A DNA stretch of 64,000 nucleotides. It comes from Octopus sinensis (taxonomy: Eukaryota). The notes beneath the pieces are model-generated. The model worked only from the letters and a program-made list of their open reading frames with translations, was not told the origin of the DNA and did no database searches. The stretch lies in the NCBI RefSeq assembly GCF_006345805.1, contig NC_043018.1:2232001-2296000 (forward strand). The letters run 5' to 3'. Below, in pieces: positions 18,783 through 49,484 of this stretch. Each line of letters starts with the position of its first letter. The first letter of the stretch is position 1. Made by a program: the position numbers and the translations under genes.

Positions 18783-19028
18783 CAGTCATCAGGAGAGAAT
18801 GTGCGACGTTTCAGGACCTTTCTCTTGACGGATGTATTGCGCACTGGCACCACTCGCTTCGATGAGACCCCTCTTGGCAGATCTTCTCGTTAGTAGCTTT
18901 CAATCCAGTCATCAAGAGAGAATTCGCGCCGTTTCGGGACCTTCCTCTCGAAGCTATTATTGCGCACCTGCTCAACTCGCTTAGATGAGACCCCTCTTGC
19001 TAGACCCTCTGGTTAGTAGGTTTCGCTC
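18783..19028. repeat. Diverged 123-bp tandem duplication
   Basis: Units 18783-18905 and 18906-19028, roughly 80% identical by eye with no indels. Confidence 0.85.
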
Positions 19029-36492: not shown

Positions 36493-37345
36493 ATCTAAAC
36501 ACTATCCGTGTGACATTGAATTTTCCAGACAGAATAGAACATAAATATGGTTTCAGATTGACTTCTTTCAGTTGTTTAACACAAGGCACCGTCTTCCTCG
36601 TTGTAACCACTAACAGAAAGAAAAAGAAACAGACCGGGGGAAAAGAAGAAAGAAGAATTCTTTTTCTAATCTGACACCTTATACAACTCTAAGTTACCTC
36701 TTTTTTTTCTTCTAACCGATGGCTACTCTCGGACGTGCATTTTCGAAATATTCCTTTTCTGTAAAACAGCAAATATTGAATCTTTACTGATTTTATATCT
36801 TGACAGAATATTACGCTAACGGCTGTCATTCACTTAAAAGGTCATGGAACTACCAAAGCATTTATTCAGAGCAATATCTTGTCTATTTGCTTAGGAATTT
36901 CTCCCTCAAAATTCGGTAAGTAATGGACAAGTTTCTAAACACTTATAAAGTTTGGTTCTCTCTTGCTTTTATTCTATTAACTTTGCACAACTTAATCCTT
37001 TCGACGCTGATATGTCAGAACTTACTGGGATTATTTATGTACACGAATCTTGCTTCAGTTATCGATATTCAGTCTGCCCTTAAACGACACGCCATGTTTC
37101 AAGATAGCTTACTCTAAATTACATCACTGTTGGATCCAATCAACTTCACAGAACAGGCATTTCTAAAATGTCCTTAAAACATGTAAACCACTTCATAATC
37201 CATGTGCGTGTATATGTATATGTGCTTGTTTGTATGAGTATATGCACTTGCATGTATGTGTTTTTATATGTAAATATGAATATAAACATATGTGCATCTG
37301 TGTGCATATATATATAACTACAAACACAAGCACATACTTAGGTAT

Positions 37346-37404
<59 letters not shown>

Positions 37405-37405
<1 letters not shown>

Positions 37406-37626
37406 TTTATTTAAAGCAGCAGAAAATTCAATAAAACCTGTTACTCTGAGTTTCCCGTTGCCGTTCATCGGACAGTTTTTGCAAAAACTGTCCCATGAAC
37501 GGCAACGGCAAACTCAGAGTAACAGGTTTTGTTGAATTTTCTGCTGCTTTAAATAAAGCATATTACTCTCCCACTGGTATTGAGTACTCTTTTTTCCACC
37601 TTGTTTCACATTTATGTGTTTACTCC

Positions 37627-37678
<52 letters not shown>

Positions 37679-37739
37679 GGAGTAAACACATAAATGTGAA
37701 ACAAGGTGGAAAAAAGAGTACTCAAATACCAGTGGTAGA

Positions 37740-37742
<3 letters not shown>
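37405..37742. mobile_element. PLE-type element P3 arranged as two adjacent palindromes
   Basis: 77-bp arms with no spacer (37405-37558), and ~65-bp arms around (TA)n (37564-37742). Confidence 0.8.
37438..37475 (-). ncRNA. Candidate minimal hammerhead ribozyme (U4C variant)
   Basis: CTGT-CCGATGA-ACG-gcaa-CGG-GAAA-CTC-a-GAG-TA-ACAG; GUA triplet. Confidence 0.62.
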
Positions 37743-37779
<37 letters not shown>

Positions 37780-37959
37780 CTTTATACCTAAGTATATATA
37801 TATGTGAGACTTGAAAAAGAGCCAACATCTGATGAAAGGCCGTTCTTTATTTTGTTTGCTTTGTTTTCCATTTGTGTCTTTCGTTTTTCGAAAGAATAGT
37901 TCATGTTTCATGTACTCGTGCTTCGTATTTTTTGTTGTACATATTTCAAGACGTCCTGT

Positions 37960-38195
37960 GCCCACATAAGCCGACTAACGGACAGAATTAGCGACAGATT
38001 GACGCAATATATCCGAAATATCCATTTCTAAACAGTCCTTCCGTGGCGCCTCACGTATGTTCAACTTTCGAACTTTACCAAGCGCCTCACTCTCTTCATC
38101 CTCGCCTTACCCCATGGAACTACCATCACTAGACTTCGCCAAGAACAGTACATTTTCACACTAGAAACTCAATCACTGTCTGGACTTAACACTCT
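37960..38195 (+). mobile_element. Penelope-like GIY-YIG endonuclease remnant
   Basis: RISDRLTQYIRNI..(fs)VAPH..RLRQEQYIFTLETQSLSGLN, resembling the R..EH / E..I..L.T..P.GLN tail; a degenerate P1-like hammerhead follows at 38690-38720. Confidence 0.65.
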
Positions 38196-47984: not shown

Positions 47985-49484
47985 GTCCTTCAGTACTGAT
48001 ATCAGAATAGAGTTCCGACTGAGAAAGTGTGTTGTGTTAGTCTCGAAGAGAAGCAAAATCAAATGTATGGATGGGCTAAGGTTACCGTTGGGGGAGGTTA
48101 TGAAGTAGACAAAAGAGAAGGGATATAAGTACTTGGAGATTTTGCAAATGGATAAATTGATGGAGAAAGAAATGACAGAAAAATTTAAGATGGAATACTC
48201 GCGCAGACTGAGACTGATCCTAAAGTCAAAATTTAATGGACGGAATAAAATTGAAGCTATCAACACCTGGGCGGTTTTACTCCTTAGATATGGAGCAAGG
48301 ATGATCGCATGTCCAGCAGACGAACGAAACAGCTTAGACAGAAAGACAAGGAAGTTGCTGACTAGATATCGGACATTCCACCCAAAACGTGACACCGATA
48401 GACTGTATGTACCAAGAAAAAGAGGGGGAAGAGGACTTATTGGATGCGAACACAGCATTACAGAAGAAGAAAACAACATAGCATGGTATGTAAATGCGGC
48501 AGAACCGCTATTATTAGAAATAAGAAGGTCAGGGTTGTGTAGGAAGAAAGATTGCAAAGATAAAGCACTATTCAACAAATTGTGGATGAATGAAACTGAA
48601 AATAGTTGGGTAAAGAAAAGAATGCATGGTCAGTTCCATAGGGATGTTGAAGATAAGACAGACAGATAGAAAAAAATGGCTGTGGTTGACTAAAAGTAAT
48701 TTAAACCTGGAAACGAAGGCTCTAATCTGTGCTGCCCAAGAGCAAGTACTAAGAACAAACTACATAAAATACAGAATATTGGGATGTTGAAGATAAGACA
48801 GACAGATAAAAAAAAATGGCTGTGGATGACTAAAAGTAATTTAAAACTGGAAACGAAGGCTCTAATCTGTGCTGCCCAAGAGCAAGTACTAAGAACAAAC
48901 TACATAAAATACAGAATAGAAAACACAGCAGAAAGTGATAAGTTCAGAATCTGTGGACAAAATGGTGAAACCGTATGGCATATTACCAGCCAATGTACGT
49001 CATTAGCCCAGAAGGAATATAAGAGACGCCACGACAATATAGCCAGGCTTGACCATTGGTCACTTTGCAACAAGTATGGACTTGACAGAGCAAAATATTG
49101 GTACGGCCACAAAACTGAAGTCATCGTCGCAAATAGAAATGCAAAGATCATATGAGATTTTATGATTCAGTGCGACCATGAGATAGAGAATAGGAAACCG
49201 GACATAGTATTTATACGATAAGGAAAAGAGAAAAGTCGAGAGATATGACAGGTTAGCTTCGGAACTTAAGTAGTTGTGGTCGATGAAAAAAGTAGCAGTA
49301 GTACCAATAAGTGTCAGAGTACGTGGAACAAACAGAGGCCGCAATAAGGGTAGAGAACTTGCAGAAAAACAGCACTGCTTGGAACCGCCCAGATACTCAA
49401 AAATTAAGATGTGTTACCTTAGTTCACTGGTATTGAACAGCTGACACTGCAGTACATCTCCAAAGTTAGAATCTGTGCAAAGAC
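47985..49484 (+). mobile_element. 5'-truncated R4/Dong-clade LINE ending in (AAT)n
   Basis: YKYL, NKIEAINTWAV..RY, RLYVPRKRGGRGL, MHGQF, AAQEQ, degenerate CCHC (RICG..ETVWHITSQC), RHD and RKPDIV motifs; contains stops and frameshifts. Confidence 0.93.

What the first reader, a model, noticed from the sequence alone, without database searches (positions are those of the whole stretch)
37334..37795. Three-level nested palindrome around a hammerhead element
Seen: a spacerless 154-bp palindrome (37405-37558, 3 mismatches) and a second palindrome centred on (TA)n (37564-37742). The whole block lies between TA runs flanked by a 16-bp inverted repeat ATACTTAGGTATAAAG (37334-37349 / 37780-37795). Inference: repeated fold-back priming or template switching during insertion, which duplicated even flanking DNA in inverted orientation. 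The block is cruciform-prone.
Basis: partly seen in the sequence, partly recalled or inferred. Interest (0 to 1): 0.72.

Follow-up and report, generated by a model that had tools for sequence, protein, structure and literature searches.

The report
Penelope stump layered in TA tract
The three nested mirror-image segments are real, but the inner one is the usual stump left by a very common Penelope-type jumping gene, the middle one is likely a second scrap of the same element landing the other way round, and the outer one is likely a small repair scar of a kind also seen at TA repeats without this element, so the locus is mostly ordinary.

Summary
All three inverted repeats are present as described. 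Level 1 is the standard footprint of a Hydra-clade Penelope-like retroelement (3.35-kb unit, RT plus endonuclease): a short inverted arm joined head-to-head to an arm with a 70-nt tail. 66 of 100 sampled copies have it and 50 loci share this spacerless centre. It cannot be self-copying, because the tail is absent from the other arm. Level 2 is a 64-nt tail piece whose breakpoint recurs at 13 other loci. Tail-to-tail pairs (9) are no commoner than expected from independent non-palindromic neighbours (11), though 2 of the 9 are true fold-back copies. Level 3, an inverted 14-16-nt copy of flank, is unique and not chance. It is not enriched at this family (1 of 97 blocks), and similar scars lie at TA tracts without it (7 loci in 0.94 Mb; mirror control 0), fitting snap-back repair. 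The hammerhead motif matches a published coral Hydra one; this copy's cores are mutated. Reads confirmed only the left flank. The scan reported such stumps before on other DNA of this genome. Best reading: layered events in one TA tract; one iterative fold-back event is the main rival.

The parts
37334..37350 (+). Host flank; template of the level-3 inverted copy (16 nt plus one mismatched G)
   Evidence: contigs of two studies cover it to 37341
37351..37404 (.). (TA)27, left part of the target tract
37405..37481 (-). Inverted short arm of the Hydra-clade element, ending at the family's short 3' end
37438..37475 (-). Type I minimal hammerhead motif, core with U4C (a subfamily state); activity untested
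37482..37558 (+). Forward arm; joined to the inverted arm through a self-complementary GC at 37481/37482
37488..37525 (+). Hammerhead motif with U4C, G5C (37494) and G12C (37509); predicted inactive
   Evidence: core numbering from established knowledge
37559..37628 (+). 70-nt one-sided tail ending at the family's long 3' end; two private changes (37570; one T missing near 37581)
37629..37676 (.). (TA)24, centre of level 2
37677..37740 (-). 64-nt 5'-truncated tail piece in opposite orientation, carrying the family-majority letters
37741..37778 (.). (TA)19
37779..37795 (-). Inverted copy of the left flank (14 non-TA letters, exact match 37780-37795), bounded by TA on both sides; likely snap-back scar
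37793..37803 (.). Short TA run, right end of the tract

Best explanation
The block is a TA microsatellite holding the short stump of a Hydra-clade Penelope-like retroelement, a second scrap of the same element in opposite orientation that likely inserted separately, and an inverted copy of 14-16 flank bases that is likely a snap-back repair scar; the nesting would come from separate events hitting the same self-complementary tract. Shown: the parts, the family, its coding master, and how often each level occurs. Inferred steps: (1) the element's endonuclease nicks both strands of (TA)n; (2) one end primes reverse transcription at the short start site and the other at the tail start site, and the two short cDNAs meet head-to-head and join at a self-complementary GC, giving the spacerless palindrome with a one-sided tail; (3) a further nick in the right-hand TA primes another cDNA from the tail start, which stops after 64 nt and joins by TA microhomology; (4) at some time, order unknown, a TA 3' end folded back on the tract, copied 14-16 flank bases, unwound and annealed to TA on the far side. 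The block has no likely function; the hammerhead cores are mutated passengers.
For: Family: 3813 exact tail ends in TA. 66 of the first 100 have an inverted short arm within 450 nt. 50 loci share this exact spacerless centre. 12 of 20 long copies are inverted pairs of one short end and one tail end (counted by eye). The ORF of a long copy has RT motifs and the Hydra signature motifs (vs 51). Inverted arm plus one-sided tail is the described PLE layout (PMC8557442, PMC3846280), and two internal RT start sites with extension of both strands were shown in vitro for a Poseidon element (PMC11167929). Level 2: the same 5' breakpoint occurs at 13 other loci, 12 as stand-alone tails. The piece carries the majority letters (three T in 81 of 83 sampled tails) where its neighbour has private ones. 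Non-palindromic tail-to-short neighbours number 20, of which 11 look independent by eye; these predict about 5-8 independent tail-to-tail pairs against 9 seen. Level 3: 1 of 97 family blocks has a weak flank inversion, null 18 of 2997. 7 loci in 0.94 Mb of arbitrarily chosen DNA have TA-bracketed inverted repeats without this family inside; the mirror-image control gives 0. Blocks vs tracts Fisher p=0.46. L307 and L258 show short inverted copies bounded by TA on both sides, as here. Snap-back synthesis primed by TA/AT repeats is described (PMC5728401, passages).
Against: Both rare layers sit at one locus; independence predicts only about 0.1-0.2 such loci in the family (my arithmetic). Several analogues show two fold-backs in one tract (L063, L275, L258, L014), so iterative events exist. 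2 of 9 tail-to-tail loci are true copies. The differences between the two tails do not separate the models, since later mutation could give them (p=0.28). 4 of the 7 control loci have low-complexity arms, L318 may be another element's paired arms, and the classifications were made by eye. No read or empty site covering the block was obtained.
Confidence: 0.6

Rival explanations
1. One messy integration event. After the normal head-to-head insertion, the growing top strand folded back in the central TA and copied 64 nt of tail, switched to TA, folded back on the left TA run and copied the flank, then joined the right end. The polymerase would be a host repair enzyme or the element's RT.
For: The geometry allows it on one strand (sequence). 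True fold-back copies of this element exist (L070, L073). Repeated fold-backs in one tract are seen. Co-occurrence under independence is low (about 0.1-0.2 expected). 2 of 117 tail ends are followed by a 4-nt copy against 0.04 expected, although that 4-mer is self-complementary and may be a direct duplication.
Against: The 64-nt piece has the same breakpoint as 12 stand-alone insertions and lacks its neighbour's two private changes. There is no excess of tail-to-tail over non-palindromic neighbours and no enrichment of flank inversions at family blocks.
Confidence: 0.29
2. Levels 2 and/or 3 are assembly or library fold-back artefacts.
For: Palindromes and TA runs are hard to sequence (established knowledge; assembly difficulty is noted in PMC8557442). 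No listed contig bridged the block; the right junction was inconclusive.
Against: The arms differ at every level, and the second tail carries family-majority letters that its neighbour lacks, which a chimera copying the neighbour would not produce. Level 1 is family-wide, and short-read contigs show many inverted-arm joints and loose ends of this family. The left flank is confirmed in two studies.
Confidence: 0.07
3. The 16-bp outer repeat is the terminal inverted repeat of a composite or MITE-like unit, or the block is a selected hairpin or ribozyme cassette.
For: The outer repeat brackets the whole block symmetrically.
Against: It is unique in the genome. No second copy of the composite turned up among the 9 tail-to-tail loci. 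The hammerhead cores are mutated, and there is no Rfam match.
Confidence: 0.04

Closest known systems
Hydra clade of C-terminal EN+ Penelope-like elements (Craig et al. 2021, PMC8557442; section 11 and supplement rows read)
   Same: RWK, DKT, CxCX5C linker, CxxC and CxH around the conserved E and N, no CCHH, (TA)n targets, hammerhead. Stem I, core, stem III and cleavage site are identical to the Hydra-2_aMil motif apart from the stem III loop base.
   Different: Unit is 3.35 kb (clade generally under 3 kb). Helix II is only 2 bp with a GNRA loop and a variable closing pair. The hammerhead differs from that listed for Hydra-1_Obim, so this is probably another family; the sequences were not aligned.
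Inverted-pLTR plus tail insertions of EN+ PLEs (Adineta, PMC3846280 passages; Poseidon in vitro, PMC11167929 parts 1-2 of 4)
   Same: Head-to-head arms, palindrome at the junction, tail on one arm only, two RT start sites, both strands primed.
   Different: The tail is 70 nt rather than 30-40. No target-site duplication can be seen in TA. The added tail-to-tail piece and the inverted flank copy are not described in the passages read.
Snap-back synthesis-dependent MMEJ (PMC5728401 passages)
   Same: Short inverted primer repeat (TA/AT), limited synthesis, unwinding, annealing by new microhomology; leaves an inverted copy of flank.
   Different: Described at engineered nuclease breaks, not at long (TA)n tracts or retroelement insertions. 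The polymerase here is unknown.
Non-LTR retrozymes (PMC7229834 passages; bioRxiv 10.64898/2026.07.22.740005 part 1 of 5)
   Same: Short non-coding sequence with a type I hammerhead, related to PLE pLTRs.
   Different: Retrozymes are tandem repeats with canonical ribozymes; this is a truncated end of a coding element in inverted arrangement.

Membership tests
EN+ Penelope-like element | Single ORF with RT followed by a GIY-YIG-type endonuclease | tested here: met
   706 aa from the first Met in L046, with RT motifs and a C-terminal endonuclease-like region read by eye. Pfam gave no hit on it; one of the 120 listed relatives carries PF01541.
EN+ Penelope-like element | pLTRs in partial tandem or inverted arrangement | tested here: met
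   2 of 20 long copies tandem, 13 of 20 inverted, 5 with one end in view
EN+ Penelope-like element | One-sided tail | tested here: met
   Two fixed 3' ends 70 nt apart; longer than the published 30-40 nt
Hydra clade | RWK and DKT motifs | tested here: met
Hydra clade | CxCX5C linker; CxxC and CxH around E and N; no CCHH | tested here: met
   The linker is intact in 2 of 3 copies (one Cys changed in L046); the other motifs are in all 3
Hydra clade | Insertion in (TA)n | tested here: met
   note the tail pattern itself required TA, whereas the loci did not
Hydra clade | Length under about 3 kb | tested here: not met
   Tandem unit 3.35 kb; the paper says 'generally', so this is a soft criterion
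Hydra clade | Placement in an RT tree with reference Hydra families | not tested
   no tree was built
Type I minimal hammerhead of PLEs | Core and three helices with palindromic helix III | tested here: met
   Family majority core in 63 of 97 arms, 96% of cells paired; no covariation, and the rows were chosen by conserved letters; matches Hydra-2_aMil. The forward arm of this copy fails at G5 and G12.
Type I minimal hammerhead of PLEs | Self-cleavage | not testable with these tools
   needs in vitro transcription
Snap-back SD-MMEJ scar (level 3) | Inverted primer repeat, templated insert, microhomology at its far end | tested here: met
   TA primer, 14-nt insert, 3-nt TA-type microhomology; one mismatch next to the primer
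Snap-back SD-MMEJ scar (level 3) | Empty ancestral site and polymerase dependence | tested here: inconclusive
   No contig bridged the block; the polymerase cannot be tested here
Non-LTR retrozyme | Tandem non-coding units, no coding master | tested here: not met
   inverted stump of a coding element

The most novel reading that the evidence does not exclude
The telomerase-related RT of Hydra elements itself switches between its RNA and nearby DNA at TA ends, so that one integration writes arm, tail, inverted tail and inverted host flank. Abortive attacks by TA-targeting Penelope nucleases would then explain the thousands of TA-centred inverted duplications in this genome (7 loci per 0.94 Mb; up to about 20,000 if scaled).
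Probability: 0.15. Interest if true: 0.55.

Novelty: new member of a known kind. Interest (0 to 1): 0.24.

Why it matters
As a locus it matters little: it is a probably inert pile-up. Its value is as a footprint. The family's thousands of young stumps fit the two-start, two-strand priming seen in vitro for another clade. The TA tracts of this genome also carry measurable inverted duplications of neighbouring DNA. If these proved to be written by the element's own enzyme, they would bear on the open question of how Penelope-like elements form inverted structures and finish integration.

Tried and rejected
Rfam at gathering score and at E<=10: no hammerhead, only generic hairpin (miRNA) models below threshold. 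Single-strand MFE folding of the arms did not give the hammerhead fold, z 0.06 to 1.4. Pfam and PDB sequence searches of the ORF: nothing useful. Idea that catalytic-core changes are selected in the tail-bearing arm: G12 to C or T occurs in only 23 of 4817 matches. Of these 17 are tail arms, 4 short arms and 2 unclassed, against 43:33 in a baseline sample (p=0.046, including this locus). The first impression came from a biased query, and I treat it as a weak hint only. Idea that the ORF starts at the ATG inside the hammerhead core: it needs the two-T tail variant, found in 1 of 83 tails; rejected. Outer repeat as a family terminus: rejected. Structure count used a misregistered string and was redone; neither shows covariation. 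Laying reads: the tool skipped the simple repeats. The two raw-read runs were sampled too thinly (8 and 0 reads). The depth seen over the right junction in two runs coincides with a loose end that suggests a chance contig, so it is not counted as support; the lack of cover proves nothing. No empty site was found. A paper search for TA repeats with snap-back and inverted duplication found 0 papers. Searches found no report of tail-to-tail or flank-inverting Hydra insertions, judged from listings and the passages read; this is a narrow search.

Full report
Observation. The window is G000:C22:2232001-2296000 of a 2.72-Gb genome. Earlier notes of the scan call it an octopus genome; I did not test that. 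In the ORF list for 28000-50000 the frames over the block are short and run through simple repeats.

The family. A search with 37482-37628 returned dispersed copies 94-97% identical among the 40 candidates scored. In the 29 other loci printed, the usual layout is TA, short inverted arm, variable junction, arm with tail, TA. Walking into long copies gave a 3.35-kb unit. Of 20 long copies, 12 are inverted pairs with one short end and one tail end, 1 has two tail ends, 2 are tandem and 5 show one end only (by eye). One copy has an open frame of 766 codons with RT motifs and a C-terminal nuclease-like region. Pfam did not hit it; 850 relatives were found, mostly about 700 aa. The alignment shows RWK, DKT, CxCX5C, CxxC and CxH and no CCHH, the features listed for the Hydra clade in section 11 of PMC8557442. 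No tree was built.

The hammerhead. Rfam finds none. The family motif has the majority core in 63 of 97 sampled arms and pairs in 96% of cells under the type I model, without covariation (rows were chosen by conserved letters). Its stem I, core, stem III and cleavage site match those tabulated for Hydra-2_aMil, apart from the loop base. Minimal PLE hammerheads with palindromic helix III that act weakly as dimers are described in PMC4209133 (passages). Here the left arm has U4C. The right arm also has G5C and G12C, which are two of the three palindrome mismatches; by established knowledge of the core it is predicted inactive. G12 changes are rare genome-wide (23 of 4817).

Level 1. There are 3813 exact tail ends. 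Of the first 100 on contig 1, 66 have an inverted short arm within 450 nt, 1 an inverted tail, 10 run on into the element body and 23 were classed solo (automatic, so 66 is a floor; one duplicate locus was dropped). Fifty loci share this exact spacerless centre. The right arm holds 70 nt that the left arm lacks, so it cannot have been copied from it; two primings are needed. This matches the described layout (PMC8557442, PMC3846280; passages) and the in vitro result that a Poseidon enzyme extends both strands from two internal start sites that bound the tail (PMC11167929, parts 1-2 of 4). PMC3846280 instead proposed self-priming on an antisense template; I did not test that.

Level 2. Tail-to-tail pairs within 68 nt number 9. 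Two copy a private junction (L070, L073), two join different variants (L067, L072), and five, including this one, are open. Non-palindromic tail-to-short neighbours, which fold-back cannot make, number 20: 9 tandem duplicates and 11 independent-looking by eye. These predict about 5-8 independent tail-to-tail pairs, so stacking alone nearly accounts for the 9. Random choice among about 3 million tracts would give only 1.2, so these elements pile up. The 64-nt piece has a breakpoint found at 14 loci; 12 of the other 13 are stand-alone tails. It has the majority letters where the adjacent tail has two private ones. That excludes a recent copy or chimera but not an old copy (p=0.28). I put a separate priming at about 2 to 1.

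Level 3. The repeat is unique, so it is a local inverted copy of flank, bounded by TA on both sides. Among 97 family blocks only one weak 12-mer inversion was found, against 18 of 2997 cross-paired nulls. In 0.94 Mb from 94 arbitrarily chosen stretches (8 of them beside the window) with 1226 TA runs, 7 loci had TA-bracketed inverted repeats of 13 nt or more, none holding this family. A re-scan with wider merging kept 6 of them and gave 0 for mirror-image repeats. Four have low-complexity arms. L307 (34-nt copy between two TA runs; its sequence has 38 hits genome-wide but only this adjacent inverted pair) and the 16-nt piece in L258 resemble level 3 closely. L063 and L014 show two fold-backs in one tract. 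Rates at family blocks and at tracts do not differ detectably (p=0.46), with low power. The anatomy fits snap-back synthesis primed by TA/AT as described in PMC5728401 (passages).

Reads. Contigs of two studies cover the left flank to 37341; the tool skipped the simple repeats and no listed piece bridges the block. Depth over the right junction in two runs coincides with a loose end typical of a chance match and is not counted. An artefact is unlikely because the arms differ in ways a chimera would not produce, but it is not excluded.

Verdict. The most likely history is layered: an ordinary Hydra stump, a second tail scrap and a repair scar in one self-complementary tract (0.6). A single iterative fold-back event is the main rival (0.29); it is favoured by the low chance of both rare layers meeting (about 0.1-0.2 expected) and by repeated fold-backs elsewhere. 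The element is a probably unlisted family of a known clade, and the scan has already noted such stumps in this genome. Also seen: passages of PMC7229834, part 1 of 5 of bioRxiv 10.64898/2026.07.22.740005 (its supplements were not seen), and listings. Interest 0.24.

Noticed in passing
window 37808-37990: The right flank is a diverged copy of another abundant repeat (82% to L103 over 145 nt; high summed contig depth) that begins with a hammerhead-like core heptamer; possibly the end of another Penelope-type family in the same TA tract.
   Followed up: partly
window 37344-37349 and 37405-37410: The last 6 flank bases before the G and TA run are complementary to the first 6 bases of the inverted arm; chance or an older fold-back remnant.
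   Followed up: no
L063:1693-1836: Two nested fold-back copies (18 and 9 nt) of neighbouring DNA across TA runs with no element inside.
   Followed up: partly
L014:655-1180: A similar three-level nest built from another repeat family, with a 10-nt flank copy present twice between TA runs.
   Followed up: partly
L070:1248-1839: 599-bp palindrome: a whole Hydra stump duplicated in inverted orientation across TA, private junction included.
   Followed up: partly
L318:2450-3000 and L258:6543-6997: Long (200 nt or more) near-perfect palindromes centred on TA, one of a SINE-like repeat; fold-back, paired insertions or assembly error not resolved.
   Followed up: no
L325-L344: 9 of 20 tail-to-short neighbours are tandem duplicates of one stump with the same private junction; slippage through TA or assembly.
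   Followed up: partly
family-wide: Subfamilies differ at hammerhead position 4 (U or C) and at the base closing helix II; about a third of sampled arms carry U4C.
   Followed up: partly
window 48109-49155: Broken frames resembling a LINE-type reverse-transcriptase C-terminus (recalled resemblance, no search run), with a 140-bp tandem duplication at 48641-48918.
   Followed up: no
window 18783-19024: 123-bp unit present twice at 81% identity.
   Followed up: no
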